In this document: positions 3,323-47,448 of the stretch, one piece after another | Position numbering within the stretch: the stretch's first letter is position 1 | How the letters are laid out: every line of letters begins with the position of its first letter | Assembly (NCBI GenBank): GCA_964583105.1 | Contig: CAZOUV010000003.1 | Location: forward strand, 14,946-78,945 | Length of the DNA stretch: 64,000 nucleotides | Direction of reading: 5' to 3' | Origin: an uncultured Gammaproteobacteria bacterium | GTDB lineage: Bacteria; Patescibacteriota; Microgenomatia; UBA8517 | Program-made: the position numbers and the translations under genes | The notes under the pieces: generated by a model | Told to the model about the DNA's origin: nothing | The model's database searches: none | What the model saw: only the letters and a program-made list of their open reading frames with translations

Positions 3323-3943
3323 TTAATGGAATATGTTATGGAAGTAGTCGTAGGAAAGAGTTTGGCGATTTTTCCAACTAATAGGAAAGTTTGAATCCCC
3401 TTTGGTGTAACGGAAAGAACCCGACATAGTATCTTCTTTCATTATGTACCAACCCCCGTATTTATCTACAAATCCGTAAAAAGAAACCTCTCCATAATTA
3501 TCAATTTCGCTTATTTTATAACTGTCAGTTGGTTTTAGCGATGAATTTTGGTTTGATGGTCCACTATCAAGTAGCGTTGCACCTTGATTAACAGATCTTC
3601 CTAGGAGCAAACTTTCAACCTTTTTGGTAAACAAGGAAAAAAGGAAAAAAGAAAATCCGGCCGCTCCGACAAGTTTCAGAAATGCTCTTTTGTCTATATC
3701 CACAATATCAACAGCTTTTCTCTCTGCACCATTATCCTGTTCAACGGCAACGACAAATTTCTCGGGGTTTGGGTTTTCACTTTTACGCCCGATGAATTTA
3801 AAAGCAAAATAAATAAGTGGGGGATAAAGCAAACTTGCAATTGCAAGTTGTGTGTAGTTTGATGCTGTTATAAAGGATATAACAATCATGGTTGCAACTA
3901 AAGCTACACAGATATAGGAGATAATTTTATTTGTTATTGTCAT
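3323..3943 (-). CDS. hypothetical membrane protein
   Basis: 206 aa with two or three hydrophobic segments. Its start overlaps the stop of the upstream gene (ATGA). Confidence 0.5.
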   Translation of the reverse strand: MTITNKIISYICVALVATMIVISFITASNYTQLAIASLLYPPLIYFAFKFIGRKSENPNPEKFVVAVEQDNGAERKAVDIVDIDKRAFLKLVGAAGFSFFLFSLFTKKVESLLLGRSVNQGATLLDSGPSNQNSSLKPTDSYKISEIDNYGEVSFYGFVDKYGGWYIMKEDTMSGSFRYTKGDSNFPISWKNRQTLSYDYFHNIFH

Positions 3944-5172
3944 ATGTTTTCGTTTTCTACAACTTCCACCAGATCTGAAAAAATATACCCTAGACCATCC
4001 TCAAGTTTTATTTGATACCAGCTGTTGGTAAGAGAAACATATTCAAATATCTCTCCGTCTTTGGCACTAGCAACTATTTTGGAGTCGAAAGAGGGGTTCT
4101 CACGAACATTAACGGATGAAAGCTCTTTATCATTAATTTTGACCGTTACTAATTTTGTATCTTTTTCTGTTTCAGTTCTTATCCCCGCAACAGATTCTTT
4201 AGGTATTGCTAGAGAAGTGTCTATATTTTGAGTTTCGATTTCGGGTGTTACCGGGGTTTGTCTATTTTTAAATGCAGTTTGAGCTATTCTTAGATACTTT
4301 GATACTATATCTGTATTGTTTGATCCTACAGTACTGCGTACATTGTTAAAACCGAACGAAAAAAGCAAAATATAGATAGATGTAGCCAGAGAAAACTTAA
4401 AAAAAGAATATCCAAACGACCCGTTTGACTTATTTTTTCTGTTTGAATAAGGATTATCCTTTTTATTTGGAGGCTGTCTCCTCACAAGATGAGCGTATTC
4501 TTTATCTAAAAATATACACTCGCAGAGTTTGAGATCTTTTTCATCCAAATCGTAATTTTCAACAAATTTTTGATAATTTTCGATACTTTTTATTTTGGAG
4601 TGTTGACTGTTGTTAAAAATTGTCAAAACCAAATTGCTATTTAGCCACGGAAGCTTGTTTTTTCCTGTATATACATCATAAGAAGAATATTTACTACTTT
4701 CTAAAGCCTCACGGTGTAAATAGTTGCTTAAATAAAGAAGAGAAGATTCATTTTCGATAAGGGCGGACTTATAGGGCCCCGCAAATAGGGGGCCTTGATG
4801 GTTGTATTTTTTATTGTAATACATAGAGTATCTTGTAGAAAGAGATCTCATAAATTTTTCCAAAAAACCACCAGCCAATTGACACAAAACAAGATGAAAA
4901 TGATTGGGGAAAAGTGTATATACTATAAGATCAATTTTATTATGGTAATTCTGGGGTTGATATGATATACCCCGGTATTTTTTACCACGGATCTCAAACT
5001 CTTTTTGAAAGAAATTCGGATCAGTAATGGGACTAAGATATTCCTTTAAAAAACCCAGGAAAATTTCGTAGTCTTGCTTGTCGTTAAAGATATTATTTCC
5101 GGAAATACTCTTGTTTGATATATGAAAGAATCCATTTTCTTTATCAATACGTTTGATATACTTGGCAGGCAT
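3940..5172 (-). CDS. HUH (IS200/RAYT-like Y1 transposase fold) domain fused to a TM segment and a C-terminal SH3b-like domain
   Basis: 410 aa. HUH 'NHFHLVL' and Tyr helix 'YLSNYLHRE' lie in the first ~170 aa. There is a hydrophobic 'FFKFSLATSIYILLFSFGF' segment. The C-terminal 'VNVRENPSFDSKIVASAKDGEIFEYV..WYQIKLEDGLGYIF' is SH3b-like. Confidence 0.6.
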   Translation of the reverse strand: MPAKYIKRIDKENGFFHISNKSISGNNIFNDKQDYEIFLGFLKEYLSPITDPNFFQKEFEIRGKKYRGISYQPQNYHNKIDLIVYTLFPNHFHLVLCQLAGGFLEKFMRSLSTRYSMYYNKKYNHQGPLFAGPYKSALIENESSLLYLSNYLHREALESSKYSSYDVYTGKNKLPWLNSNLVLTIFNNSQHSKIKSIENYQKFVENYDLDEKDLKLCECIFLDKEYAHLVRRQPPNKKDNPYSNRKNKSNGSFGYSFFKFSLATSIYILLFSFGFNNVRSTVGSNNTDIVSKYLRIAQTAFKNRQTPVTPEIETQNIDTSLAIPKESVAGIRTETEKDTKLVTVKINDKELSSVNVRENPSFDSKIVASAKDGEIFEYVSLTNSWYQIKLEDGLGYIFSDLVEVVENENI

Positions 5173-14938: not shown

Positions 14939-15139
14939 ATGAAGTTGAAAAATATTTCAAAATGGTTGGTGGTTATAGGGGCAGCTAATTGGGGATTGGT
15001 AGGACTTTTAAATTTTAATTTAGTTACGTTTTTATTCGGTGGCTGGCCAGTGATTGAGAGGATTATCTATATACTTGTTGGTATTGCAGGTTTTTGGGCC
15101 ATATACAACAAACTAACCAAACCCTCAAAGAAAAAATAG
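14939..15139 (+). CDS. DUF378 family small membrane protein
   Basis: 'VVIGAANWGLVGLLNFNLVTFLFG'. The SD GGAAGGGGG lies ~9 nt upstream of ATG 14939. Confidence 0.7.
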   Translation: MKLKNISKWLVVIGAANWGLVGLLNFNLVTFLFGGWPVIERIIYILVGIAGFWAIYNKLTKPSKKK

Positions 15140-15183
15140 CTATAGATACAAAATCGGAGCGAAATTGATGATATCATGAATAT

Positions 15184-16290
15184 ATGATTAAAGTTGGTAT
15201 TAACGGATTTGGACGTATCGGAAGAATTGCTTTTAGGATCGGAATAGTAAAACATTCAGACGAAGTTATTTTTTCTGCAATAAATACTTCTGGAAGTATG
15301 GATACGGCCGGATGGGCGCATTTGGTAAATTATGATTCGACTTACAGGAAGTTTGACTATGAAGTTAGGGGAGAGGAGGCAAAAACCCCAGATAAAGTAA
15401 CAGATGAGGACCCTCTGATTGGTTATCTTTCAGTTCAAGAAAGGGGAATAAAAGTTCCCTTGTTGGCACAAAAAGATCCCGAAAAAATTCCCTGGGGAAA
15501 ATATGGAGTAGATGTTGTTATTGAATCAACCGGAAAATTTGTGACAGAGGAAGATGCTAAGAAGCATGCAAGGGGGGGGGCTAAAAGAGTTGTAATTTCG
15601 GCGCCAACTAAAGGTGAAAATGTAGGGACATATGTCATAGGTGTTAATGAAGTTAAAGGTTCTCCGGAGGTTATTTCAAATTCTTCATGCACCACAAATT
15701 GTGTAGCACCTGTTATGGCTGTTCTTCATTCAAAATTTGGGGTTGAAAAAGCGGCCATGACAACAATTCATGCCTATACTGATGATCAGAATCTTCAGGA
15801 CGGATCTCACAAAGATTTAAGGAGGGCCCGTTCTGCTGCTCAAAATATAGTTCCCACAACAACTGGTGCCGCAATTTCAACAACGGAAACAATTCCTGAA
15901 TTAAAAAACATCTTTGATGGACGTGCCCTAAGAGTTCCGGTTATTTGTGGTTCCATTACCGACTTTGCAATTGTTACAAAAAGAAATACTACGGTTGAAG
16001 AGGTAAATAAAGCCTTTATTGATGCTTCTAATAATGTCTTGTATAAGGGAATATTAACTATTTCCGATCAACCTTTGGTATCAACAGACATTATAGGTAG
16101 GAGTGAATCTTCTATCGTTGATTTGTCATTAACTCAAGTAATTGGGGGAAATTTAATTAAGGTTTTTTCCTGGTACGACAATGAATGGGGTTATGCAAAT
16201 CGTTTGGTAGAGCAGGTAATAAGAATTGGTAGAAACATGACGGGAGGAAAAGTTCCAACCGACCCTTTAACATTATCCTTTAATTCTTAA
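15184..16290 (+). CDS. gap: glyceraldehyde-3-phosphate dehydrogenase, type I
   Basis: 'VGINGFGRIGR', 'SNSSCTTNC' and 'WYDNEWGY'. Confidence 0.95.
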   Translation: MIKVGINGFGRIGRIAFRIGIVKHSDEVIFSAINTSGSMDTAGWAHLVNYDSTYRKFDYEVRGEEAKTPDKVTDEDPLIGYLSVQERGIKVPLLAQKDPEKIPWGKYGVDVVIESTGKFVTEEDAKKHARGGAKRVVISAPTKGENVGTYVIGVNEVKGSPEVISNSSCTTNCVAPVMAVLHSKFGVEKAAMTTIHAYTDDQNLQDGSHKDLRRARSAAQNIVPTTTGAAISTTETIPELKNIFDGRALRVPVICGSITDFAIVTKRNTTVEEVNKAFIDASNNVLYKGILTISDQPLVSTDIIGRSESSIVDLSLTQVIGGNLIKVFSWYDNEWGYANRLVEQVIRIGRNMTGGKVPTDPLTLSFNS

Positions 16291-16884
16291 ATGGAAGAAA
16301 AATATCAAAGACACCTAATGAGAAACGTAGCGTTTTTTGGTGATGCCGATGTTTCCGAAAAAGACCCCGTTTTTAAATCTGCATTTGGGACGGCCAAAAT
16401 TCTTGCGGAGAATGGTTATACGATTGTTGATGGTGGAGGCCCCGGTGTAATGCATGCCGCAACCGCAGGGGCCCAAGAAGCCGACGGTCCTACATTAACC
16501 ATTACCTTCGATCCTGTTAATGCTCCCGGATATGAAGGAAGGTATCTAAAAAATGTTCCGGATAAAGAGATTGTAACAACCAATTACATAGACAGAATGT
16601 TTAAACTCATGGAATACGGAGATATATTCGTAATATTTAGGGGAGGGAGTGGAACAATTAGCGAATTTGGTGCCGCTTGGGCATTGGCAAAACTTTATTA
16701 CGGACACCACAAACCCTTTATCTTATATGGTAATTTTTGGGCGGAAATAATTGATTGTTTAAGGCATAATATGAATTTAAGCAGTAAGGAACTTTCGGTT
16801 TTTGAAATTGTAAATTCTCCCAAAGAGGTACTTGCCGCAATTGAAAAATTTGAAAGGAAAATATCCGATGGTAAAAAACTCTAA
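16291..16884 (+). CDS. LOG/TIGR00730 family Rossmann-fold protein
   Basis: 'VDGGGPGVMHAA' and 'FRGGSGTISE'. The start abuts the gap stop codon. Confidence 0.75.
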   Translation: MEEKYQRHLMRNVAFFGDADVSEKDPVFKSAFGTAKILAENGYTIVDGGGPGVMHAATAGAQEADGPTLTITFDPVNAPGYEGRYLKNVPDKEIVTTNYIDRMFKLMEYGDIFVIFRGGSGTISEFGAAWALAKLYYGHHKPFILYGNFWAEIIDCLRHNMNLSSKELSVFEIVNSPKEVLAAIEKFERKISDGKKL

Positions 16885-36202: not shown

Positions 36203-38539
36203 ATGGTTACAGAAACGTTATTTGATTACAATTTAATTATTAATATTCTCCTTTTTTCGGGAGTAGCAGCTACTTTATTTGTCGCATTGTGGCAAATTGC
36301 TTTAACCTTTTTTAAACACAGGGGTAGAGAAGAAAGAAGTGTTGACTCGGTTCTTCTTCAGATTGCACTGCCAAGAAATAACGAAACCAAGATTGATGCC
36401 ATGGAACAAGTATTTTCTTCTCTATATTCGATTAAAAAAGGTGGATGGAAACAAAGATTTTCGGTTCAACCTACCGTCTCTTTTGAAATTGTGGCCATGC
36501 AGGAAGACATAAGATTCTTTGTCTGGTGCCCCAAAAAACTTCAAGATCTTTTGGAAAAGCAGATTAACGGAGGTTTTCCGGAAGCGGAAATTAAGGAAGT
36601 TCCCGAAGTTGATATTTTTAAAGAAAAAGGTAAGGTTGCCTATAAATCCCTTCAGCTTTCCAAGGCAAATTTCTATCCCCTTAAAACCTTTAAAGATTTG
36701 GCAACTGATCCACTAAGTTCGGTTACATCTACCTTGGCTAAAATGGGACCCGATGAAGCCGCATCCGTTCAGATACTTGTATCTCCTGCTGAAAGTGCTT
36801 GGCAAAAATCGGGAAGTAAATTTATTTCTGATACCAAAAAACAGGAATCCGATCCTGAGAAAGCAAAATTTTCAACCTCAGCAAAAACTTTGGAAGCGGT
36901 TGAAAGTAAAATTGCAAAACCCGGATTTGAGACATCAATAAGAATTGTTGTTGTCTCCGAAACATCGGAAATTGCAAAATCACATCTTGATAATATTGCA
37001 TCCTCCTTTAGCCAATTTGCATCAGATACAAATCTTTTAAAGAAGAGAAAAATTGTCAATAAAGGTGCTTTCATGGAAGATTTTCTTTACAGGTATCAGC
37101 CGATGTTTAATATGCCCGGCAATAGAATGTCTGTTTTAAATTCTGAGGAACTTGCAACAATATATCATTTTCCCAATAAACAAGTCACAACCCCGCATAT
37201 TTTTTGGCTTAACGCAAAAACAGCCCCGGCCCCTTCTCAAATACCCATGGAGGGAATGTTTTTAGGCAATAGTATTTATAGGGGAATTAAAAGACCAGTC
37301 TTTATTTCCAACGAGGACAGGATGAGACACGTTTATATTATTGGTAAAACCGGAACCGGAAAATCCGAACTACAAAAAGAAATGATAATTCAGGATATTA
37401 AAGATGGTAACGGCCTTTGTTTTATAGATCCTCACGGAGATGCTCTTCAGGAGATATTAAAACAGGTGCCTCCTGAAAGAGCAGAGGATGTAATTTACTT
37501 TAATCCTGCAGATACCGAGCGTCCCATGGGACTTAACCTTCTAGAGGCAAAAACAGAAGATGAAAAACACTTCGCCGCAACATCAATTATCAATATGATG
37601 TATAAACTTTTCGATCCTTATAAAACAGGTATTGTGGGTCCCCGTTTTGAACACGGAGTCAGAAACGCAATGCTCACGGCAATGAGTGAAGAAGGTAACA
37701 CCTTTGTTGAAGTAATGCGCATAATGACCGACTCGCGCTATGTCCAAGAGCTTCTTCCCAAGGTTCAGGACCCCATTGTTAGAAGATACTGGACCGATCA
37801 GATTGCCCAAACCGCGGACTTTCATAAATCCGAAGTTTTAGATTATACGGTTTCCAAATTCGGAAGGTTTGTTACAAATAGACTCATAAGAAACATTATC
37901 GGTCAATCAAAATCGGCATTTGATTTCAGGCAAATTATGGATCAGGGTAAAATTCTCCTTATCAGTCTTGCCAAGGGAGAGCTGGGAGAGGAAAACTCAA
38001 ACTTTTTGGGACTTATTTTAATTCCCAGGATTTTGATGGCGGCCATGAGTAGGGCCGATATGCCTAAGGAGCAAAGACGAGACTTTTTCCTTTACGTAGA
38101 TGAGTTTCAGAATTTTGCCACCCCCGATTTTGCAACCATTCTTTCTGAGGCAAGAAAATACAGCTTGGGTCTTTGTGTAGCAAATCAGTTTATAGGTCAG
38201 GTGGAAGAGGAAGTTAAAAATGCGGTATTTGGTAATGTCGGAACAATAGTTGCATTCAGAGTGGGAGTGACGGATGCAAACTATTTACAGCATGAATTTA
38301 CTCCGACGTTTGCGGAAGATGATTTATTAAACATTGAAAGATATCATGCTTATATAAAAACCACGGTTCATAATGAACCAGTTCCTCCTTTTTCCATGGA
38401 TTTGACCAAAGACATGGCTCAACAAAAAGCTTCCGAAAATGAAAGAGTTGCAGAAATAATAAAAGAAATGAGTAGGATAAAGTACGGTAGGGATGGGAGA
38501 ATAGTTGAGGCGGAGATTGCAAGACGTTCTAACCTATGA
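36203..38539 (+). CDS. VirD4/TraD/TraG-like (type IV coupling protein-like) membrane ATPase
   Basis: N-terminal TM 'IINILLFSGVAATLFVALWQIALTFF', Walker A 'IGKTGTGKS', Walker B 'FFLYVDEFQNF' and 'CVANQFIGQ'. The first ~330 aa are unassigned. Confidence 0.7.
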   Translation: MVTETLFDYNLIINILLFSGVAATLFVALWQIALTFFKHRGREERSVDSVLLQIALPRNNETKIDAMEQVFSSLYSIKKGGWKQRFSVQPTVSFEIVAMQEDIRFFVWCPKKLQDLLEKQINGGFPEAEIKEVPEVDIFKEKGKVAYKSLQLSKANFYPLKTFKDLATDPLSSVTSTLAKMGPDEAASVQILVSPAESAWQKSGSKFISDTKKQESDPEKAKFSTSAKTLEAVESKIAKPGFETSIRIVVVSETSEIAKSHLDNIASSFSQFASDTNLLKKRKIVNKGAFMEDFLYRYQPMFNMPGNRMSVLNSEELATIYHFPNKQVTTPHIFWLNAKTAPAPSQIPMEGMFLGNSIYRGIKRPVFISNEDRMRHVYIIGKTGTGKSELQKEMIIQDIKDGNGLCFIDPHGDALQEILKQVPPERAEDVIYFNPADTERPMGLNLLEAKTEDEKHFAATSIINMMYKLFDPYKTGIVGPRFEHGVRNAMLTAMSEEGNTFVEVMRIMTDSRYVQELLPKVQDPIVRRYWTDQIAQTADFHKSEVLDYTVSKFGRFVTNRLIRNIIGQSKSAFDFRQIMDQGKILLISLAKGELGEENSNFLGLILIPRILMAAMSRADMPKEQRRDFFLYVDEFQNFATPDFATILSEARKYSLGLCVANQFIGQVEEEVKNAVFGNVGTIVAFRVGVTDANYLQHEFTPTFAEDDLLNIERYHAYIKTTVHNEPVPPFSMDLTKDMAQQKASENERVAEIIKEMSRIKYGRDGRIVEAEIARRSNL

Positions 38540-38552
38540 TAATCTTTCCGTT

Positions 38553-39398
38553 ATGAATATTGGAGTAATTGGCTGGGGTTTTGTGGGTCAGGCAACCGGA
38601 AAAGGACTTGCCACAAACAAAAAAAACAAAATCTTTGTTTATGATAAACAAAGAACAAGCCCATTAACCTTAGAGGAAGTTGTAGAAAAATCGGAATTTA
38701 TCTTTATTTGTGTGCCTACCCCGATGTATTCAGACTACTCCGGAATGAGTATGGCTATTGTAGAAGAAGTTGCGGGACAGATTGCAAAAGTAGCCAAGGG
38801 AACGGATAAAATAGCGATTGTTAAATCTACGGTTCTTCCGGGCCTTACTCAAAGTTTCATTAAAAAATACCCCAAAGTTAATTGGGCAATGAATCCGGAA
38901 TTTCTTACACAGAACAATGCAAACTATGATTTTATGCACCCCGCAAGAACGGTTATTGGAGCCTCATCCAAGAAAGTGGGGGAAAGGATAAAAGCTCTTT
39001 ATCAAACAATTTACCCCAATGATCAAACATATTTCATAATGGACGTAACCAGCGCAGAACTTACAAAGTATATGAGCAATAACATGCTTGCCTCACAGAT
39101 AATTGTTGCAAACGAGTTTTACTTCTTAGCTAAAAAAGTAGGAGCTGATTATGAAAAAGTAAAGGAAGCCGTTGGGGCTGATAAAAGAATAGGGAGATTT
39201 TTACAAGTGCCAGGTTGGGATGGAGATTTTGGTTTTGGACAAGCTTGTTTCCCAAAGGACATGATTGGTATTTTGGGTCACGCCAAAAAATTAAAAGTAG
39301 ATATGTCAGCCTTATCTGCAATATGGCAAAAGAATTTAAAAATAAGAAAAAACAGAGACTGGGAACACATGACTTCTGCCTTCAGAAAGAAAAATTAA
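38553..39398 (+). CDS. UDP-glucose/GDP-mannose dehydrogenase family protein lacking the C-terminal domain
   Basis: 'IGVIGWGFVGQATG' and catalytic-Cys block 'GFGQACFPKD'. It is only ~281 aa. Confidence 0.7.
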   Translation: MNIGVIGWGFVGQATGKGLATNKKNKIFVYDKQRTSPLTLEEVVEKSEFIFICVPTPMYSDYSGMSMAIVEEVAGQIAKVAKGTDKIAIVKSTVLPGLTQSFIKKYPKVNWAMNPEFLTQNNANYDFMHPARTVIGASSKKVGERIKALYQTIYPNDQTYFIMDVTSAELTKYMSNNMLASQIIVANEFYFLAKKVGADYEKVKEAVGADKRIGRFLQVPGWDGDFGFGQACFPKDMIGILGHAKKLKVDMSALSAIWQKNLKIRKNRDWEHMTSAFRKKN

Positions 39399-39678
39399 TT
39401 TTTTGTTAAGGGGATGGAAAGAAGGTCATCAAATCTTATTAAACCCAACATCGTACCTCGTTCTGTGACTGAGTTACAATGGAGGGAATCCATGCTTTCT
39501 CCAGTTGTTGGGGACATCAGGTCTGGGGGAAAAATTCTTTCAGTTTGCATAAACAATGGCATGGTTTATTATAATGTTTGTATGAGTTATCGTTATTGTC
39601 GCCAATGTAGCGATCAGGATTATTGTTCGGAAAGATCAATTGGAACTTCAAATCTGCTATAATTTCATCGTAGTTTTC

Positions 39679-39749
39679 GGATCCGTCGTTTAACGGCAAG
39701 ACGGGTCTCTTATAAAGACCAAACGATAGTTCGACTCTATCCGGATCCA
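39679..39749 (+). tRNA. tRNA-Ile (anticodon UAU)
   Basis: Acceptor GGATCCG/CGGATCC, U8, D stem GTTT/AGAC, anticodon stem GGTCT/AGACC with loop CTTATAA, T arm GATAG-TTCGACT-CTATC, discriminator A, no encoded CCA. TGcTATAAT lies at 39655-63 upstream. Confidence 0.85.
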
Positions 39750-39770
39750 CTCAAAAAAGTTTTATTTTGA

Positions 39771-41600: not shown

Positions 41601-41608
41601 AACTTCTG

Positions 41609-41678
41609 TTGCGGAGCCAGGAGTTGAACCTGGCCTGCGAGATTATGAGCCTCGCGTGCAGCCGTACACTACCCCGCA
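41609..41678 (-). tRNA. tRNA with CAU anticodon (Met; initiator-like weak U1:A72 pair)
   Basis: Minus strand: UGCGGGG-UA-GUGU-ACGGCU-GCAC-G-CGAGG-CUCAUAA-UCUCG-CAGG-CCAGG-UUCAACU-CCUGG-CUCCGCA-A. No encoded CCA. Confidence 0.8.
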
Positions 41679-41749: not shown

Positions 41750-41821
41750 GCCAACGTAGCTCAGTGGTAGAGCGGAGCCCTCATAAAGCTTAGGCCGAAG
41801 GTTCAATCCCTTCCGTTGGCA
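41750..41821 (+). tRNA. tRNA with CAU anticodon (elongator Met or Ile2)
   Basis: GCCAACG-TA-GCTC-AGTGGTA-GAGC-G-GAGCC-CTCATAA-AGCTT-AGGCC-GAAGG-TTCAATC-CCTTC-CGTTGGC-A. There is a C31:A39 mismatch. Confidence 0.8.
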
Positions 41822-41868
41822 CTCTTCTAGTTTTTAGTTATTGACTTATTGGCATACATTGTATTACA

Positions 41869-42153
41869 ATGAAATCTGGTAAGAGTATGAAACTGGTTTG
41901 GGACGAGTGGAACAAGGAACATATTAAAAAACATAAAGTTTCCGTTTCTGAAGTCAAACAGGCCTGTAAGAACGAGATTGTTACTAAACAATCATATCTA
42001 AACAGGCAAATGATTTTAGGAGTAACGAAAAACAAGAGACTTTTGACAGTATTTCTCTCTTTTGAGAAACAGAAAGAAGGATATGTTGTGTCAGCAAGAG
42101 ATATGAGTTTAAAAGAAAGGAAAGTTTATTATGAAAAGACCAAAACCAATTAA
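41869..42153 (+). CDS. brnT: BrnT-like (DUF497) toxin, second copy
   Basis: 'LVWDEWNKEHIKKHKVS' and 'VVSARDMSLKERKVY'. Confidence 0.7.
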   Translation: MKSGKSMKLVWDEWNKEHIKKHKVSVSEVKQACKNEIVTKQSYLNRQMILGVTKNKRLLTVFLSFEKQKEGYVVSARDMSLKERKVYYEKTKTN

Positions 42154-42412
42154 ACCATTTAAATCTTTGAAAGAAGAAGCCAATTTTTGGGATACTCACG
42201 ATGTAAGTAAAGTATTTAAAAATCCAAAAATTTCTCTTTCCGAATTATTATCCCTTGAACCTAAAAAGGAAGTAATAATGACCTTAAGGGTTCAGAAAGT
42301 GGTTAAAGAAAAAATAGACAAAGTAGCAAAAATAAAAGGGATTAACCCCGCAACTCTTTCCAGAATGTGGCTTGTGGAAAGATTGACAAGGGAAGAAGGT
42401 TTGGTATACTAA
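42131..42412 (+). CDS. brnA: BrnA-like antitoxin, second copy
   Basis: 'KPFKSLKEEANFWDTHD' with a C-terminal RHH-like 'MTLRVQKVVKEKIDKVA'. It overlaps brnT. Confidence 0.7.
   Translation: MKRPKPIKPFKSLKEEANFWDTHDVSKVFKNPKISLSELLSLEPKKEVIMTLRVQKVVKEKIDKVAKIKGINPATLSRMWLVERLTREEGLVY
42383..42410 (+). promoter_or_regulatory. sigma70-like promoter for the T-box leader
   Basis: TTGACA(42383-88)-16 nt-TATACT(42405-10), embedded in the 3' end of brnA. Confidence 0.55.
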
Positions 42413-42417
42413 CGCTA

Positions 42418-42683
42418 GTTTTATAAATGCTTTGAGAAGATCGGTTGGGATCTTTGAATAGCTGGCAAAGCTACTCGAAAGAGATGTCGAGCCCAGAGGC
42501 GAAACTGTAAAAGTCAGCAACGAGTGTCGGAAACGGAGCTCGTCAAGAATAAGGTTTTCTTATCTTAACGATCTCGCTTTGGCGAGATTTTTGATTTAAG
42601 ACAACAAAAATAGGGTGGTACCCCCGAGAGGGCCCTTGTAAATTAACGATTTGTTTCGTTGGTTTGCAAGGGCTTTTTTGTTT
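42418..42683 (+). promoter_or_regulatory. T-box riboswitch leader (predicted Trp-specific, transcription-termination type)
   Basis: K-turn-like 'UUUGAGAAGAUC'; hairpin 42437-54 with loop GGUUGG; Stem III 42571-88; T-box 'AAAUAGGGUGGUACCCCCGAGAGGGCCCU' folding as AGGG[UGGUACC]CCC-GAGA-GGG-CCCU; and a competing terminator. Confidence 0.85.
42632..42683 (+). terminator. intrinsic terminator of the T-box leader
   Basis: An 18-bp stem (42632-49 pairs with 42656-73, including 4 G:U) with a 6-nt loop, followed by TTTTTTGTTT. Confidence 0.85.
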
Positions 42684-42755
42684 GGGAATGTAGCTCAAGG
42701 GCAGAGTATCCGTCTCCAAAACGGAAGATTGAGGGTTCAAGTCCCTCCATTCCCA
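42684..42755 (+). tRNA. tRNA-Trp (anticodon CCA)
   Basis: GGGAATG-TA-GCTC-AAGGGCA-GAGT-A-TCCGT-CTCCAAA-ACGGA-AGATT-GAGGG-TTCAAGT-CCCTC-CATTCCC-A. No encoded CCA. Confidence 0.95.
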
Positions 42756-42831
42756 CATATGGAAAGAATTAAATTTATAACACCGGCTATGTTAATTAGA
42801 AAGGAAACCTCGCAAGAGGGGTATCTCTGGC

Positions 42832-44238
42832 ATGACTATGTTTGGAATAAATATATTACTTAAACATATAAATAATAACTCTTTTATTGATAGGGAAGTT
42901 TCAGGTGCCCTAAAAAGAAGAGGGGAGAAAGAAATCTTTAATAGATTTTTGGTATCAGAACTTTCTTCGGGAGATAAAGTCATCGATTTTATGCTCAAAG
43001 AAGTTAAACAAAATACTAAAAACCTTTTAAAAGAAGGAATAATTATACCTGATCAGGTTTTACTTGATTTTACTATCTCAATTTTGAAGGCGGGTGGGAG
43101 TGAGAAACTGAATACCTACGACACAATTGTCAGGAAAATTATTGAACAAGAAAGCCCAAGATTTAAAAAACTTCACAACGATATAGATAAAGGCAGGTTT
43201 GACGGCAGATTACCCTTTGGGTATCCGGATGCAAGCAAAAGGGCGGCAGGGATGTTAACTGCCAAGATAAAAGATACTGCTCAAGATGTTAGAGAAGATT
43301 ATTTGGAGCAAAAATTTGTTGGAGATAAGATTAGAGAATTTTCCAAAGAAATGTTTTACGGAATTAATAAATTGGACCTATCGGGTAATGAACTGGTTAG
43401 ATATTTGAACATTCTCTATGGACTATCTCTTGTGCAAGTTGCACCTACGGAAAACCCCATACTTTTAAAAAGTAGAATATGTGAGGCCATAAGACAAAAA
43501 GAGCCAATTGATCTTGTGTATATAAAAAGCTTACGTTATTCCTATCCAGGGGGAAAAGGCATGAAATTAGTTAACCACCTTAATGAAGAAGAGACATTAA
43601 ATTTAGACGGGACAAAAAGGAAGTATTTCAGCGAGCATTTAATATTAGAAAGATTAGGTAAATTTGTTCAAATTTTTAATAATGCAGATGTAAAAGTTCA
43701 CTTAAATATAATAATTGCAGATAATGATCTTGATATTCTTTTCCCTATCGGTAGCGGTTTTGTGCCCGACAGCGATATTTATACAGCAAAAGAAGATATT
43801 AATTATTATCTGGAAAATTTTTGTCGTACCTGTGAGAATATGCACGCTGATGTTTATCTTTTAACAGATTTTATTAAACAAAAACATCTTGAGGGTAGTT
43901 ATACAAAGATGGTTAAATTTATTTATTCGGATGTTAAAAATCAAAGAAACATCATATCTGAAAGAGAAATCGAAGAAAGAGTAAATTTCAGATATGAATT
44001 TTTTGGACAGATCTATGGAAAAAAGTATTCAAGGGAATGTGCAAGAGAGGCAATGTATAACCAAATTGCAAATGTTATGGCCCTGTCAGAAGTTTTTAAT
44101 TCTTTTAAAAAACCTCCGGTTGTGGTGATTGATTACAGGGGACTGGAGAATAAAATGATTGGTGGACTAGAACCAAATTCCAGAAGCGTGTTCTTGACCA
44201 AACTTAAAGAGCCAACGATAATAGAGAAAGTGAAATGA
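42832..44238 (+). CDS. hypothetical cytoplasmic protein, function unknown
   Basis: 468-aa ORF with no TM segments and no motif I recognise. Its stop overlaps the trpS ATG (ATGA). Confidence 0.7.
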   Translation: MTMFGINILLKHINNNSFIDREVSGALKRRGEKEIFNRFLVSELSSGDKVIDFMLKEVKQNTKNLLKEGIIIPDQVLLDFTISILKAGGSEKLNTYDTIVRKIIEQESPRFKKLHNDIDKGRFDGRLPFGYPDASKRAAGMLTAKIKDTAQDVREDYLEQKFVGDKIREFSKEMFYGINKLDLSGNELVRYLNILYGLSLVQVAPTENPILLKSRICEAIRQKEPIDLVYIKSLRYSYPGGKGMKLVNHLNEEETLNLDGTKRKYFSEHLILERLGKFVQIFNNADVKVHLNIIIADNDLDILFPIGSGFVPDSDIYTAKEDINYYLENFCRTCENMHADVYLLTDFIKQKHLEGSYTKMVKFIYSDVKNQRNIISEREIEERVNFRYEFFGQIYGKKYSRECAREAMYNQIANVMALSEVFNSFKKPPVVVIDYRGLENKMIGGLEPNSRSVFLTKLKEPTIIEKVK

Positions 44239-45218
44239 AAAAAAGAGTATTTTCAGGTACAAGAGCAACCGGAAGGTTGCATTTGGGTAATTATCTTGGA
44301 GCCGTAAAAGGTTACCTTGAACTTCAGGATAATTCCAATTATGAAACCATTTATATGGTTATGGATTTGCATGCCATAACGACACCGTTTGACAAAGAAA
44401 AACTATCCAATAATACAAAAAACGTAATTATGGATTATCTGGCCTGTGGTCTTGATCCTGAAAAATCTATAATTACTGTTCAATCTTTGGTTCCGGAACA
44501 CACTTATTTGGCCCAAATTCTTTCCTCCGAAATAACGGTTGCCAGAATGCAGCACTTGCCTACATTTAAGGACAAGGTAAAACAATACCCCAAAAATGTT
44601 TCCATGGCCCTTCTTAATTATTCGGTTCTCATGGCTGCCGATATTCTTCTTTATAAGGCATCTTTGGTTCCCGTGGGGATTGATCAGGAACCGCATTTGG
44701 AAGTTGCCCGAGAAATTGCACGAAAAATGAACGAAAAATACGGTACGGATTTTCCTGAACCAACTAGGTTTTCAACAAAAGGAGAATATGTACCCTCATT
44801 GGTTGGAGAAGGCAAGATGAGTAAGGGCGTTGAGGGAAGCTATATAAACATTACCGATGACTTAGAAACCATCAAAAGTAGATTGGCACAGGCTCCAACC
44901 GATAGCGGGAAGGGAGATAAAATTCCCAAAGAAGGGGGAGTTGCAAACCTACTTACCTTTGTTGAGCTTTTTGAAGGAGAAGATAAAAGAAAGAAATATG
45001 AGAAAGATTATATTGGAAATGGTATTAGATACGGAGAATTAAAGGAAGAACTTGCGAAAGCCATATATAAAGAACTTAAGCCAATACAGGAAAAAAGAAA
45101 AGAATTTGAAAACAATCCTTTTTTAGTAGATGAAATAATTAAAGAAGGAGCCCAGAAAGCAAGTAGAATTGCTAAAGAAACCATTAAAGAAGTAAAAAAG
45201 AAAATTGGTCTTATTTAA
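44235..45218 (+). CDS. trpS: tryptophan--tRNA ligase
   Basis: 'GRLHLGNYLG' (HIGH) and 'KMSKG' (KMSKS); 327 aa. Confidence 0.95.
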   Translation: MKKRVFSGTRATGRLHLGNYLGAVKGYLELQDNSNYETIYMVMDLHAITTPFDKEKLSNNTKNVIMDYLACGLDPEKSIITVQSLVPEHTYLAQILSSEITVARMQHLPTFKDKVKQYPKNVSMALLNYSVLMAADILLYKASLVPVGIDQEPHLEVAREIARKMNEKYGTDFPEPTRFSTKGEYVPSLVGEGKMSKGVEGSYINITDDLETIKSRLAQAPTDSGKGDKIPKEGGVANLLTFVELFEGEDKRKKYEKDYIGNGIRYGELKEELAKAIYKELKPIQEKRKEFENNPFLVDEIIKEGAQKASRIAKETIKEVKKKIGLI

Positions 45219-45219
45219 T

Positions 45220-45573
45220 ATGGATACTATTTCATTTGACGATTTTCAAAAGGTTGATATAAGGGTTGGAACCGTTATTAAGGCGGAAGTTCCTTCTTGG
45301 AGCCATTGGGTGATGAAAATTACTGCCGATTTGGGTCCCGAAATTGGCGAAAAAGTTTGTTTTTCAGGAATAATGAAGTTTTTTAAGCCCGTTAGTTTTG
45401 TAGGTAAACAGTTTCCTTTTGTTGTTAATTTAGAGCCTAAAAAGATTGGACCGGAGAAGGATTTTTCTGAGGTTATGATGATTATGGCCTGCCCCGGAGG
45501 AGATGACAACGACATTGCTCCTGTTTTATTTAAACTTCAGAAAAAGGTTCCAAATGGAACAAAAGTCTTTTAG
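45220..45573 (+). CDS. tRNA-binding domain protein (CsaA/Trbp111-like OB fold)
   Basis: 'FDDFQKVDIRVGTVIKAE' and 'VVNLEPKKIGP'. ATG 45220 lies 1 nt after the trpS stop. Confidence 0.8.
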   Translation: MDTISFDDFQKVDIRVGTVIKAEVPSWSHWVMKITADLGPEIGEKVCFSGIMKFFKPVSFVGKQFPFVVNLEPKKIGPEKDFSEVMMIMACPGGDDNDIAPVLFKLQKKVPNGTKVF

Positions 45574-47448
45574 ATGCTACAATTCCTCCGTATGAAGAAA
45601 AAGAAAGAACTCTCAAAAAGAAAGGGGGTCCAGGTTAAGATTAGAATTAATTTAAGAAGTATTCTTTTAGGCATATTTTTGCTTTTATTTATTCTTCCTG
45701 CAATTTTTTCCTTTCTTGATTTAAAAGGTGGTAGTTCCAAGGTGGAACTTTCTCAGGCCCTTTTGGATTTGAAAGAAGGAAAAATAGAAAAAGTAACCAT
45801 TCAGGAAAACAAACTTCTTTTGGGTTACAAAGATGGAAATTTAAAATATACAACCAAGGAAGAAAGCGATAGTTTTGTGTCCCTTTTAGAAAAGGTGGAT
45901 ATGGATCCTACTAAAGTAAACTACACAATTGCAGACTCAACCTTGACAAAAGCTTTTGGCGGGGTTTTGGGGACACTTCTGCCTATTCTTTTAATGATAG
46001 GGGCCTTTTATTTTATTTTTAAGCTTCAGAGTCGAGGTGCCCAGGACATTTTCTCATTTGGAAGAAGCAAAGCAAAACTTTTTGCCAAAGGAAAACAGGA
46101 TATAACTTTTAAAGACGTTGCGGGAGTAGATGATGCCAAAAAGGAACTTGAGGAAGTTGTAGATTTTCTTAAAAACCCAGCAAAGTACAGAAAGATAGGA
46201 GCAAGAACACCCAAAGGGGTGCTTCTTTTTGGTCCATCCGGAGTTGGTAAAACACTTCTTGCAAAGGCGGTTGCTGGAGAGGCCAATGTGCCGTTTTTTA
46301 GTATGGCAGGCTCTGAATTTATGGAAATGCTCGTAGGTGTGGGCGCTAGCAGAGTTCGTGATTTATTCCAAAATGCCAAAGCTTCTGCTCCATCCATTAT
46401 TTTTATAGACGAAATAGATGCAATAGGAAGGCAGCGTGGAAGAGGGCTTATGGGGGGGCACGACGAAAGAGAACAAACCTTAAATCAAATACTTGTTGAG
46501 ATGGACGGTTTTACCCCCAATGACAATGTTTTGGTAATGGCAGCAACCAACAGGGGAGATTTATTGGATCCAGCACTTCTTCGACCAGGAAGATTTGATA
46601 GAAGAGTTACTTTGGATATGCCGGACAAAGAAGGAAGACTGGCAATTCTTACGATTCACGCCAAAGGAAAGAAATTTACAAAAGGAATTAATTGGCTAAA
46701 GATTGCAGACAGAACCGTAGGTTTTTCAGGAGCAGATCTTGAAAACATGCTTAATGAAGCTGCAATTACGGCAGCAAGAAACGGCAAGGATGCAATTGAT
46801 ATGCTTGATCTGGAGGAATCTGCCACAAAGGTAAAATTAGGCCCCGCTAAGAAAAAGATTCAAACCCAAGAGGATAGAAACTTGACAGCATATCATGAAG
46901 CGGGACATGCTCTTGTTTCCCATAAACTTACTAAAACAGATCCCGTGCAAAGAATTTCCATTGTTGCCCGGGGAATGAGCTTGGGACATACGGAAATTTC
47001 TCCAGAAACGGGTGATAGAACTCACGAAACTAAAACAAGACTTACTCAGGCCATAACAGCAATGCTTGGAGGCAGGGCTGCAGAACAGATAGTATTCAAT
47101 GAACTTACCGCTGGAGCTTCTAATGACATAAAAGTTGCTACAAAATATGCAAAGGCAATGGTGGTTGATTTTGGAATGAGCCCCTTGGGACCGGTTAATT
47201 TGGGAGGAAACAGTGAAATGGGTGACTTTGGCAATTTGGAGTGGTACGAGGGCTCACAGATCTCCCCAGCCTTTGCTGAGAAGGTAGACAACGAAATATC
47301 AAAGATATTAGACAAATCCTATAAAGAAGCAGAAACGATTATTAAAAAGAACAGAAAGACTTTGGATGCAATTGTTAAAAAACTAATGGAGAAAGAAACA
47401 TTAGATAAAGATGAATTTGAGAAGATAGTTGGGAAGAAAATAGTATAA
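45574..47448 (+). CDS. ftsH: ATP-dependent zinc metalloprotease FtsH
   Basis: '[18 protein letters not shown]', 'IIFIDEIDA' and 'HEAGHAL'. Confidence 0.95.

What the first reader, a model, noticed from the sequence alone, without database searches (positions are those of the whole stretch)
39679..39749. Hidden tRNA-Ile with a genomically encoded UAU anticodon
This is a textbook cloverleaf. It has a 7-bp acceptor GGATCCG/CGGATCC, U8, A14, GG in the D loop, anticodon stem GGTCT/AGACC, loop CUUAUAA, T loop UUCGACU and discriminator A. It lies beneath two spurious track ORFs and is preceded by an extended -10, TGcTATAAT (39655-63). Most bacteria read AUA with a CAU tRNA converted to lysidine by TilS, and genomic tRNA-Ile(UAU) is uncommon (for example Mycoplasma mobile and a few other lineages). 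The two CAU tRNAs 2 kb downstream could then be initiator (41609-78, weak U1:A72) and elongator Met. That would imply TilS-independent AUA decoding in an AT-rich genome that uses ATA heavily.
Basis: partly seen in the sequence, partly recalled or inferred. Interest (0 to 1): 0.5.

Follow-up and report, generated by a model that had tools for sequence, protein, structure and literature searches.

The report
Genome-encoded tRNA-Ile(UAU) in a Woesebacterium
The window really does encode an isoleucine tRNA with a UAU anticodon; it is the standard reader of the very common AUA codon across this whole group of ultra-small (CPR) bacteria, which mostly lack the usual lysidine enzyme TilS, so it is a new large example of a known trick, not a new mechanism.

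Summary
Confirmed. ARAGORN and Rfam both call a tRNA-Ile(UAU) at 39679-39749(+). The genome is a Candidatus Woesebacteria (Microgenomates, CPR) bacterium using code 11.

I retrieved 80 related loci with the neighbouring Xer recombinase, not the tRNA. A tRNA-Ile(UAU) sits in the same slot in 42 of 43 loci with at least 2 kb beyond Xer. There are 52 distinct sequences, all UAU. In the 33 of the window's type, 15 of 21 cloverleaf pairs show compensatory changes. A TGnTATAAT promoter is conserved.

ATA makes up 33% of Ile codons and behaves as Ile in orthologue comparisons. The two nearby CAU tRNAs are an initiator (on the minus strand) and an elongator Met. No tRNA-Ile2(CAU) or TilS was found in 870 kb of the window plus related loci.

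Published supplementary tables agree. The TilS family occurs in 123 of 2321 CPR genomes. All 12 complete Microgenomatia genomes have two or three Ile tRNAs and at most two CAU tRNAs. TilS absence in this particular genome and the IleRS adaptation remain untested.

This is a new member of a known kind (Mycoplasma mobile type).

Unexpected extra, seen only in relatives: units of about 110-120 bp carrying a whole tRNA-Ile(UAU) or tRNA-Met are inserted at A35-U36 of the resident cognate tRNA gene.

The parts
39679..39749 (+). tRNA-Ile with genomic UAU anticodon (T34 A35 T36 at 39711-39713). 71 nt, no encoded CCA, unusual D arm (C9, U12-G23 wobble).
   Evidence: ARAGORN. Rfam RF00005 at 58.1 bits. 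Sequence read. Cloverleaf covariation in 33 distinct relatives.
39655..39663 (+). Extended -10 promoter element TGcTATAAT, 15 nt upstream of the tRNA 5' end.
   Evidence: Sequence. Not listed by the consensus scanner because it lacks a -35. An exact TATAAT is conserved upstream of the tRNA-Ile unit in 62 of 64 sequences (63 related loci plus the window), 53 of them as TGnTATAAT.
41608..41678 (-). Initiator-type tRNA(CAU): U1:A72, G2:C71, C3:G70, G12:C23, A29G30G31/U39C40U41, discriminator A. It has U11:A24 instead of the canonical A11:U24. This copy has no intron.
   Evidence: ARAGORN and Rfam at 46.6 bits. Alignment. Feature table over 20 distinct orthologues, all identical at these positions. 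Criteria from PMC1635315.
41750..41822 (+). Elongator tRNA-Met(CAU): C3:G70, A4:U69, A5:U68, discriminator A, C31-A39 mismatch. It has none of the tRNA-Ile2(CAU) hallmarks.
   Evidence: ARAGORN and Rfam at 68.7 bits. Feature table: 45 of 47 orthologues have C3:G70 and 0 of 47 have C4:G69. Criteria from PMC1635315.
40003..40866 (-). Xer-type tyrosine recombinase, the conserved tail-to-tail neighbour of the tRNA. Used as the tRNA-independent anchor for retrieving related loci.
   Evidence: Pfam Phage_integrase + SAM_1. NCBIfam XerC/XerD/XerA-like, below the equivalog cut-offs. 71-92% identical orthologues in 80 loci.
38505..39398 (+). Short UDP-glucose/GDP-mannose dehydrogenase-like gene, the conserved upstream neighbour of the tRNA.
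   Evidence: Pfam. 62% identical in L004. Synteny table.
44235..47448 (+). trpS - csaA-like tRNA-binding protein - ftsH. The position directly upstream of ftsH, where tilS(-hpt) sits in many bacteria, holds no tilS.
   Evidence: Pfam and NCBIfam. The same order is seen in all 29 related loci of at least 9 kb that include ftsH, with the CsaA hit missing in two. That tilS commonly lies upstream of hpt-ftsH is my own background knowledge.

Best explanation
The gene at 39679-39749 is the functional, chromosomally encoded tRNA-Ile(UAU) of a Candidatus Woesebacteria (Microgenomates, CPR) bacterium. It is transcribed from its own extended -10 promoter, charged with isoleucine, and reads the abundant AUA codon by U34-A pairing. 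tRNA-Ile(GAU), which lies outside the window, reads AUU and AUC. The two nearby CAU tRNAs serve initiation and elongator Met.

The lineage therefore decodes AUA without the TilS/lysidine-tRNA-Ile2(CAU) system, in the manner of Mycoplasma mobile.

Shown here:
- the tRNA is real and under purifying selection
- it sits in a fixed syntenic slot across the clade
- AUA is frequent and means Ile
- no Ile2-type CAU tRNA or TilS was found in the sequence that could be examined.

Inferred:
- tilS is absent from this particular genome
- IleRS accepts the UAU anticodon
- AUG misreading is avoided, by an unknown U34 state or by the ribosome.
For: - The tRNA is called by two independent tools.
- Closely related FtsH hits (70-91% identical) are named Candidatus Woesebacteria, which belongs to the Microgenomates group.
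- Retrieval through Xer, independent of the tRNA, finds tRNA-Ile(UAU) in 42 of 43 loci with at least 2 kb beyond Xer and in 26 of 26 with at least 7 kb.
- There are 52 distinct sequences, all with a UAU anticodon. A genome-wide pattern scan that left position 34 open to C, G or T returned only T.
- Covariation in the 33 type-A sequences: 99.1% of cells paired, 15 of 21 pairs with double changes, 0 of 500 shuffles reach the observed values.
- The promoter is conserved in 62 of 64 sequences.
- ATA is 27 per 1000 codons and 32.6% of Ile codons, and TGA is a stop.
- Window ATA codons align with ATT/ATC in 45.9% of orthologue positions and with ATG in 3.4%. This matches the ATT profile (51.5% / 2.3%) and is unlike ATG positions (62% ATG).
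- The CAU tRNAs fall into one initiator class and one elongator class, at most one of each per locus. None share a backbone with the UAU tRNAs beyond the generic D arm.
- No SGGxDS PP-loop ORF occurs in 870 kb.
- trpS-csaA-ftsH synteny without tilS is conserved.
- Literature: the TilS family is in 123 of 2321 CPR genomes against 866 of 1198 non-CPR genomes (PMC6744442). The 12 complete Microgenomatia genomes have ARAGORN Ile=2-3 and Met(CAU)=1-2, against Ile=1 and Met=3 in Saccharimonadia (PMC13011429).
- The mechanism has a precedent in M. mobile (PMC3575796).
Against: - Only 64 kb of the genome is visible. The source contig could not be retrieved, so tilS, a third CAU tRNA, tRNA-Ile(GAU) and IleRS of this organism were not examined.
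- The published tables give counts per amino acid, not per anticodon. ARAGORN misses intron-containing initiator tRNAs, so 'Met=2' is not strictly proof of fMet plus Met.
- Some bacteria carry both tilS and tRNA-Ile(UAU) (PMC3575796).
- E. coli-type IleRS identity elements C4:G69, U12:A23 and C29:G41 are not present in this tRNA.
- The gene in this slot turns over unusually fast and resembles phage tRNAs. Any individual copy may therefore be of mobile origin.
Confidence: 0.8

Rival explanations
1. The UAU tRNA is merely redundant. The genome also has tilS and a tRNA-Ile2(CAU) elsewhere, as reported for Lactobacillus casei, Cyanothece and Ferrimonas.
For: Such redundant genomes exist (PMC3575796). 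About 5% of CPR genomes do have the TilS family. The rest of this genome was not seen.
Against: All 12 complete Microgenomatia genomes have at most 2 CAU tRNAs by ARAGORN and two or three Ile tRNAs, whereas CPR classes on the canonical system show 3 CAU and 1 Ile. TilS is strongly depleted in CPR. There is no tilS at the ftsH-upstream position in any relative. The UAU tRNA is kept in 42 of 43 loci under strong structural constraint, as expected for a sole decoder of a codon used 27 times per 1000.
Confidence: 0.1
2. The tRNA is an accessory gene brought in by a phage or integrative element next to its recombinase. On this reading it is cargo of a mobile element and not part of the organism's own core decoding set.
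For: It lies tail-to-tail with a tyrosine recombinase. The slot is hypervariable between relatives, whereas the neighbouring initiator tRNA is 95-100% conserved. In relatives, whole tRNA-Ile(UAU) units are inserted into older copies. One relative has a serine-integrase element beside the tRNA. Viral contigs carry tRNA-Ile(UAU) with the same odd D arm.
Against: The recombinase and both flanks (RNR...DH-like on one side, DivIC...ftsH on the other) are conserved chromosomal synteny in about 30 long loci. The tRNA has its own conserved promoter. It occupies the slot in essentially every relative. The window copy has no flanking relics or repeats. There is no match in 50,697 phage records. Mobile origin of individual copies is compatible with the gene being the essential AUA decoder.
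Confidence: 0.07
3. AUA has been reassigned (for example to Met, as in many mitochondria), or the UAU tRNA carries a different amino acid.
For: A UAU anticodon can in principle also read AUG. E. coli-type IleRS identity elements are not all present.
Against: Window ATA codons are replaced in orthologues by ATT/ATC (45.9%), ATA (14.4%), Val codons (14.9%) and Leu codons (11.4%), and by ATG only 3.4% of the time. This is the same profile as for ATT and ATC codons, and unlike ATG positions, which are 62% ATG. The tRNA has A37, A38 and A73, as in tRNA-Ile.
Confidence: 0.02

Closest known systems
Mycoplasma mobile tRNA-Ile2(UAU) system (Taniguchi et al. 2013, PMC3575796; Silva et al. 2006, PMC1635315)
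   Same: A bacterium with an AT-rich, reduced genome encodes a tRNA-Ile with a genomic UAU anticodon to read AUA. In M. mobile both tilS and tRNA-Ile2(CAU) have been lost; in the window's lineage the loss is supported but not shown for this genome. Only initiator and elongator CAU tRNAs are present nearby.
   Different: In M. mobile this is a single-species event inside a tilS-positive clade, with an IleRS Trp-to-Arg change and unmodified U34 shown experimentally. Here the state is clade-wide (Woesebacteria, and probably most Microgenomatia and other CPR classes). The IleRS and the U34 status are unknown, and the tRNA backbone is unrelated, with an odd D arm.
Bifidobacterium / Neorickettsia: tilS-less bacteria with tRNA-Ile(UAU) and a eukaryote-type IleRS (PMC3575796)
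   Same: Lineage-level loss of tilS combined with a genomic UAU tRNA.
   Different: Those lineages use the IleRS2 (archaeal/eukaryotic) type. Which IleRS type Woesebacteria use was not determined here.
Bacillus subtilis tilS-deletion suppressors (Kohrer et al. 2014, PMC3919564)
   Same: AUA is read by a tRNA-Ile with U34 in the absence of lysidine.
   Different: That is a laboratory G34-to-U mutation of tRNA-Ile1. Here the gene is natural, dedicated and conserved.
Phage-encoded tRNA-Ile(UAU) (T4-type and jumbo-phage tRNA clusters; own knowledge)
   Same: The same anticodon and, in several viral contigs, the same unusual D arm (TCGTTCAAYGG..AGGAC).
   Different: Phage copies supplement a host that reads AUA poorly. 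The window copy is chromosomal, syntenic and apparently the organism's main AUA decoder.
tRNA-dependent lysogeny (Guerrero-Bustamante and Hatfull 2024, PMC10865867). Closest known to the side-observation in relatives.
   Same: [quoted passage not shown]
   Different: In that system a whole prophage with a tyrosine integrase is inserted. In the Woesebacteria loci the inserted unit is only 109-118 bp (leader, tRNA, trailer, small hairpin), sits exactly at A35-U36 of the anticodon, carries no gene, and can be nested repeatedly.

Membership tests
Canonical bacterial tRNA (Rfam RF00005) | Cloverleaf with 7/4/5/5-bp stems, U8, A14, G18G19, a 7-nt anticodon loop with U33, and a T loop of TTCRANY form | tested here: met
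   Rfam at 58.1 bits over the full model. ARAGORN. Sequence. Covariation in 15 of 21 pairs.
TilS-independent AUA decoding by tRNA-Ile(UAU) (M. mobile type) | Genomically encoded UAU anticodon in a tRNA with Ile-type features (A37, A38, A73) | tested here: met
   All 52 distinct orthologous sequences have UAU.
TilS-independent AUA decoding by tRNA-Ile(UAU) (M. mobile type) | AUA codons are used and mean isoleucine | tested here: met
   27 per 1000 codons. The orthologue codon-substitution profile equals that of ATT and ATC.
TilS-independent AUA decoding by tRNA-Ile(UAU) (M. mobile type) | No tilS gene in the genome | tested here: inconclusive
   None in the window or in 870 kb of window plus related loci. 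None upstream of ftsH. The TilS family is in only 123 of 2321 CPR genomes.
TilS-independent AUA decoding by tRNA-Ile(UAU) (M. mobile type) | No tRNA-Ile2(CAU); only initiator and elongator Met among the CAU tRNAs | tested here: inconclusive
   Both window CAU tRNAs classify as fMet and Met. At most 2 CAU tRNAs occur in the 12 complete Microgenomatia genomes. The whole genome of this organism was not scanned.
TilS-independent AUA decoding by tRNA-Ile(UAU) (M. mobile type) | An IleRS able to recognise UAU (Arg in place of the wobble-stacking Trp of IleRS1, or an IleRS2-type enzyme) | not tested
   IleRS is not in the window or in any fetched locus. All KMSKS-motif ORFs are TrpRS.
TilS-independent AUA decoding by tRNA-Ile(UAU) (M. 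mobile type) | U34 state (unmodified in M. mobile) and avoidance of AUG misreading | not testable with these tools
   Requires tRNA mass spectrometry or sequencing.
Bacterial initiator tRNA-fMet (for 41608-41678, minus strand) | Weak or mismatched 1:72 pair, G2:C71, C3:G70, R29G30G31/Y39C40Y41, G12:C23 | tested here: met
   U1:A72 (a variant seen in 1.5% of initiators; PMC1635315) and AGG/UCU. All 20 of 20 orthologues agree.
Bacterial initiator tRNA-fMet (for 41608-41678, minus strand) | A11:U24 pair in the D stem (reported as about 100% conserved) | tested here: not met
   U11:A24 in 20 of 20 sequences. I file it as working like an initiator while being an atypical member.
tRNA-Ile2(CAU), the TilS substrate (considered for 41750-41822) | G3/A3 or C70/U70, or C4:G69 and C5:G68 (PMC1635315) | tested here: not met
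   C3:G70, A4:U69 and A5:U68 in the window. 45 of 47 orthologues have C3:G70 and 0 of 47 have C4:G69.
tRNA-dependent lysogeny / disrupt-and-replace elements (side-observation in relatives) | [quoted passage not shown] | tested here: met
   L006 is the empty site, L008 is filled and L009 is doubly nested. The same is seen for tRNA-Met in L027.
tRNA-dependent lysogeny / disrupt-and-replace elements (side-observation in relatives) | The inserted DNA is a prophage encoding a tyrosine integrase | tested here: not met
   The inserts are 109-118 bp with no ORF. Only L036 has a recombinase-bearing element (a serine recombinase) next to the tRNA, and it has no tRNA halves.

The most novel reading that the evidence does not exclude
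The tRNA-Ile(UAU) slot, and the neighbouring tRNA-Met slot, of Woesebacteria may be targets of a previously undescribed miniature mobile unit. Each unit is about 110-120 bp: a short leader, a complete tRNA, a complementary trailer and a small hairpin. It inserts precisely at A35-U36 of the anticodon of the resident cognate tRNA gene, inactivates that gene, and replaces it with the copy it carries.

This 'selfish tRNA gene replacement' would explain three things:
- nested tRNA-in-tRNA relics
- why close relatives carry unrelated tRNA-Ile(UAU) backbones while the initiator tRNA stays 95-100% identical
- why the window's tRNA backbone resembles phage tRNAs.

The enzyme is unknown. The 2-nt AT overlap and the palindromic ends fit a serine recombinase. 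The target-tetranucleotide-plus-hairpin layout fits an HUH/Y1 (IS200/IS605- or RAYT-like) enzyme.

The window's own copy shows no relics, so at most it would be the clean end-product of such a replacement.
Probability: 0.35. Interest if true: 0.7.

Novelty: new member of a known kind. Interest (0 to 1): 0.42.

Why it matters
Textbooks say bacteria read AUA with lysidine made by the essential enzyme TilS. tRNA-Ile(UAU) without TilS has been treated as a rarity: 19 species were known in 2014, with Mycoplasma mobile as the model.

The evidence here, combined with two published supplementary tables, indicates that this is the normal state in Woesebacteria. The tables suggest the same for much of the Candidate Phyla Radiation, a large share of bacterial diversity. 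No paper in the searchable library connects the two.

Practical and conceptual consequences:
- CAU tRNAs in these genomes should be annotated as fMet and Met only.
- tilS should not be used as a universal or essential marker in CPR completeness estimates.
- It remains open how IleRS and the ribosome of these organisms handle a U34 tRNA-Ile without misreading AUG.

The nested tRNA-replacement units seen in relatives could, if confirmed, be a new kind of small mobile element.

Tried and rejected
- **Is the 468-aa ORF (42832-44238) or the 122-aa ORF upstream of ftsH a degenerate TilS or Hpt?** No. The 468-aa ORF has no Pfam or NCBIfam hit and no PP-loop motif. The 122-aa ORF is a CsaA/Trbp111-like tRNA-binding protein.
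- **Retrieving the source contig to see more of the genome.** Four exact-protein look-ups found nothing on record.
- **Are the ORFs of about 1080 aa in L005 and L008 IleRS?** No, they are intein-containing FtsH. The 1093-aa ORF in L001 has no Pfam hit. All KMSKS-motif ORFs in the loci are TrpRS.
- **Is the tRNA part of a recently integrated element in the window?** No flanking tRNA halves or repeats were detected, and both flanks are conserved synteny.
- **Do the genes between the tRNA and Xer in relatives encode the mobilising enzyme?** Mostly they are TPR proteins, a PIN toxin or unknowns. Only L036 has a serine recombinase.
- **Similarity to catalogued phages.** No match.
- **AUA reassignment.** Rejected by the codon-substitution profile.
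- **Sigma-70 consensus scan for the promoter.** It did not list the extended -10. Conservation across loci was used as evidence instead.
- **Literature linking CPR with tilS or lysidine.** Nothing in main texts. Only supplementary tables carry relevant data.
- **Two remaining homology searches were left unused.** Without a Woesebacteria TilS or IleRS seed, the top hits would come from unrelated lineages.
Full report
**1.

ARAGORN reports four tRNAs in the window:
- tRNA-Ile(TAT) at 39679-39750(+)
- tRNA(CAT) at 41608-41678(-)
- tRNA(CAT) at 41750-41822(+)
- tRNA-Trp(CCA) at 42684-42756(+).

Rfam's tRNA model matches all four above its gathering score. The Ile(UAU) gene scores 58.1 bits over the full model.

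- acceptor GGATCCG/CGGATCC
- T8, A14 and G18G19
- anticodon arm GGTCT-CTTATAA-AGACC
- T loop TTCGACT and discriminator A
- no encoded CCA.

TGcTATAAT lies at 39655-39663. One detail needs correcting: the initiator-like CAU tRNA is on the minus strand.

**2. The organism**

The window is cellular, about 36% G+C, and uses TGA as a stop codon.

Its genes are typical of a CPR bacterium:
- a B12-type ribonucleotide reductase
- PduO
- a VirD4-like ATPase
- PBP1 paralogues
- a Xer-type recombinase
- DivIC
- TrpRS
- a CsaA-like tRNA-binding protein
- FtsH
- a stand-alone 5'-3' exonuclease.

An FtsH search returns a 100% identical NCBI protein, and relatives 70-91% identical that are named Candidatus Woesebacteria. 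That taxon belongs to the Microgenomates group of Patescibacteria. The source record itself could not be fetched.

**3. The tRNA is a conserved core gene of the clade**

A scan of species-representative genomes for the anticodon arm, with position 34 left open to C, G or T, returned four loci. All four are UAU. Two are labelled as Patescibacteria MAGs, one as an unclassified bacterium and one as a Gammaproteobacteria MAG, and three of the four share synteny with the window.

To avoid circularity I then retrieved loci with the neighbouring Xer protein, not the tRNA. This gave 80 metagenomic loci with Xer 71-92% identical.
- A tRNA-Ile(UAU) lies beyond the 3' end of Xer in 42 of 43 loci with at least 2 kb of sequence there.
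- It is present in 26 of 26 loci with at least 7 kb.
- The block RNR - PduO - VirD4-like - (DH-like) - tRNA-Ile(UAU) - Xer - DivIC - tRNA-fMet/Met - TrpRS - CsaA - FtsH - exonuclease - GT4 is conserved in about 30 long loci.

There are 52 distinct tRNA-Ile(UAU) sequences and none has another anticodon.

For the 33 distinct sequences of the window's type:
- RNAalifold recovers the cloverleaf.
- 15 of 21 pairs keep pairing through changes on both sides.
- 99.1% of cells are paired.
- 0 of 500 shuffles reach any of the observed measures.
- Sliding the partners by 1-3 columns destroys the signal.

An exact TATAAT lies within 60 nt upstream in 62 of 64 sequences (63 related loci plus the window), and in 53 as TGnTATAAT. 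The consensus scanner missed the window's site only because it has no -35.

**4. The CAU tRNAs**

I used the criteria of Silva et al. 2006 (PMC1635315).

The minus-strand tRNA is an initiator.
- It has U1:A72, G2:C71, C3:G70, G12:C23, A29G30G31/U39C40U41 and A73.
- These positions are identical in all 20 distinct orthologues.
- It departs from the rule at 11:24, which is U:A where A:U is expected.

The plus-strand tRNA has C3:G70, A4:U69 and A5:U68.
- Among 47 distinct orthologues, 45 have C3:G70 and none has C4:G69.
- This is elongator Met, not Ile2.

No locus has more than one tRNA of each class. No CAU tRNA shares more than the generic D arm with any UAU tRNA.

**5. AUA is frequent and means Ile**

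In 37 confident genes, ATA accounts for 27 per 1000 codons. That is 32.6% of Ile codons and more than ATG.

At positions where the window has ATA, orthologues in the related loci have:
- ATT or ATC in 45.9% of cases
- ATA in 14.4%
- ATG in 3.4%.

This is the same profile as for window ATT (51.5 / 9.4 / 2.3) and ATC codons. It is quite unlike ATG positions, which are 62% ATG.

**6. TilS**

No protein in the window matches TilS. No ORF with an SGGxDS PP-loop motif exists in the 870 kb of window plus loci.

The position upstream of ftsH holds tilS(-hpt) in many bacteria (my own background knowledge). In all 29 related loci of at least 9 kb that include ftsH, that position holds trpS-csaA.

Two published supplementary tables extend this beyond what I could see.
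- **Méheust et al. 2019 (PMC6744442, Supplementary Data 1).** The TilS family (K04075, PF01171) is listed in 123 CPR genomes against 866 non-CPR bacterial genomes and marked 'depleted'. The dataset holds 2321 CPR and 1198 non-CPR genomes. Universal families such as EF-Ts occur in 1983 and 1046 genomes.
- **The 2026 mSystems study of Patescibacteria tRNA introns (PMC13011429, Table S2).** All 12 complete Microgenomatia genomes have ARAGORN counts Ile=2 (one has 3) and Met (that is, all CAU tRNAs)=1-2. Saccharimonadia, JAEDAM01 and some Gracilibacteria and Paceibacteria show Ile=1, Met=3.

That split is what one expects from a UAU system against a TilS/CAU system. Neither paper discusses it in its main text. 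Searches combining CPR names with tilS or lysidine found nothing.

One caveat applies. The counts are per amino acid, and ARAGORN misses intron-containing initiators (see section 9).

**7. Mechanism**

Shown:
- a transcribable, structurally constrained tRNA with anticodon UAU and with A37, A38 and A73
- its fixed place in the clade
- heavy use of AUA as Ile
- no competing Ile2(CAU)/TilS components in the sequence examined.

Inferred:
- The tRNA is the sole AUA decoder.
- The lineage's IleRS accepts UAU. In M. mobile this depends on Arg865 replacing the wobble-stacking Trp. In Bifidobacterium and Neorickettsia it depends on a eukaryote-type IleRS (PMC3575796).
- AUG misreading is limited by the ribosome or by an unknown U34 modification.

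IleRS was not present in any sequence I could reach.

**8. Comparison with the known**

This works like the M. mobile system and like the other tilS-less bacteria catalogued since 2006-2014 (PMC1635315, PMC3575796, PMC4013482, which listed 19 species).

It differs in being the ancestral, clade-wide state of a large uncultivated lineage, and in using a different tRNA backbone. I therefore rate it as a new member of a known kind.

**9. What else turned up in relatives (not in the window)**

*The slot turns over fast.* The tRNA-Ile(UAU) slot evolves much faster than its surroundings.
- Loci with Xer at least 90% identical to the window carry four unrelated backbones.
- The initiator tRNA 2 kb away is 95-100% identical across the same loci.

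*Half-genes flank the intact tRNA.* In at least 13 loci the intact tRNA is flanked by halves of an older tRNA-Ile(UAU), broken at the anticodon.
- L006 is an empty site.
- L008 has a complete tRNA inside that same gene.
- L009 has a further tRNA inside that one.

*Layout of the inserts.* The eight fully nested inserts measured are 109-118 bp.
- The common layout is ...CTTAT | leader - tRNA - complementary trailer - small hairpin | ATAAAG...
- There is a 2-nt AT ambiguity at A35-U36.
- The inner tRNA is always co-oriented with the outer one.
- The insert has no promoter of its own.

*The unit moves as a whole.* The same insert family, flanks included, lies inside different outer tRNAs in L008 and L056.

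*It is not limited to tRNA-Ile.* The elongator tRNA-Met shows the same architecture at its A35-U36 in L027 and in at least six other loci.

*Closest known concept.* The nearest published idea is tRNA-dependent lysogeny (PMC10865867). Here, however, no prophage or integrase is part of the insert.

*Candidate enzymes.*
- One locus (L036) has a 5.8-kb element with a large serine recombinase abutting the tRNA. A 2-bp crossover would fit that enzyme class, but the link is unproven.
- An HUH/Y1-type enzyme is an alternative.
- I found no description of such units.

*Group I intron in the initiator.* In about 30 relatives the initiator tRNA carries a group I intron of roughly 190-220 nt (RF00028 at 68.5 and 64.3 bits). 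This is a known site for tRNA-fMet (PMC13011429). The window's copy has no intron.

**10. Verdict**

- The mechanism is of a known kind.
- The phylogenetic breadth appears undiscussed in the searchable literature and deserves a short, systematic survey.
- The nested tRNA-replacement units are the most unusual thing found. They lie outside the window and remain unexplained.

Noticed in passing
L008:11652-11845 (minus strand); L009:11652-11913; also L003, L004, L030, L037, L056, L065, L067, L071, L076, L081, L083: An intact tRNA-Ile(UAU) is nested inside the anticodon loop (A35-U36) of an older tRNA-Ile(UAU), whose 5' and 3' halves flank it. The eight fully nested inserts measured are 109-118 bp and consist of a leader, the tRNA, a complementary trailer and a small hairpin. 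L006 is the empty site, L008 is filled and L009 is doubly nested. None is present in the window.
   Followed up: partly
L027:8576-8769 (minus strand); also L026, L029, L031, L038, L059, L077: The elongator tRNA-Met(CAU) shows the same tRNA-in-tRNA insertion architecture, again at A35-U36. The phenomenon is therefore not specific to tRNA-Ile(UAU).
   Followed up: partly
L010:4141-4402 and L027:8805-9038; about 30 loci in all: In many relatives the initiator tRNA gene is split at position 32/33 by about 190-220 bp that Rfam calls a group I intron (68.5 and 64.3 bits). ARAGORN therefore misses these initiators. The window's initiator (41608-41678, minus strand) has no intron.
   Followed up: partly
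window 41608-41678 (-): The initiator tRNA has a U1:A72 pair where C1xA72 is usual, and U11:A24 where the near-universal initiator pair is A11:U24. This holds in all 20 distinct orthologues. It raises the question of how, or whether, it is formylated.
   Followed up: partly
window 41750-41822 (+): The elongator tRNA-Met has a C31-A39 mismatch closing the anticodon stem. Across 47 orthologues, the eight commonest anticodon-stem variants (45 of the 47) all lack a Watson-Crick 31:39 pair, showing A-C, C-A, U-G or G-U instead.
   Followed up: no
L036:10862-16709: A 5.8-kb insertion between Xer and the tRNA-Ile(UAU) encodes a large serine recombinase (15004-16764) and a Toprim protein. The last 17 codons of the recombinase are antisense to the tRNA. 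This is probably an integrative element targeting this tRNA region.
   Followed up: partly
window 42423-42639 (+): A weak, full-length match to the T-box leader model (21 bits against a gathering score of 93, E=0.013), containing an AGGGTGGTACC motif. It lies just upstream of tRNA-Trp, the 468-aa ORF and trpS, so it may be a divergent Trp T-box.
   Followed up: partly
window 42832-44238 (+): A 468-aa ORF between tRNA-Trp and trpS has no Pfam or NCBIfam match. It has no detectable orthologue in the related loci.
   Followed up: no
L005:1786-5031, L008:2875-6105, L009:2876-6106: FtsH of the closest relatives carries an intein of about 450 aa (with a LAGLIDADG hit in L005) inside the AAA domain. 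The window's FtsH (45574-47448) has none.
   Followed up: no
window 41869-42412 (+): A BrnT/BrnA-like toxin-antitoxin pair is inserted between tRNA-Met and tRNA-Trp. It is present in only a few relatives (both genes in L066; BrnA alone in L042).
   Followed up: no
window 3940-5172 (-): A 410-aa protein has a C-terminal SH3 domain and a weak IS200-like Y1 transposase (HUH) hit (E=1.4e-4). It is of possible interest as a candidate enzyme for the small hairpin-bearing tRNA units.
   Followed up: no
L086-L118 (IMG/VR viral contigs): 24 of 34 viral loci matching the anticodon-arm pattern encode a tRNA-Ile(UAU). Several of these, mostly within tRNA clusters of 4-11 genes, share the window type's unusual D arm (TCGTTCAAYGG..AGGAC).
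   Followed up: partly
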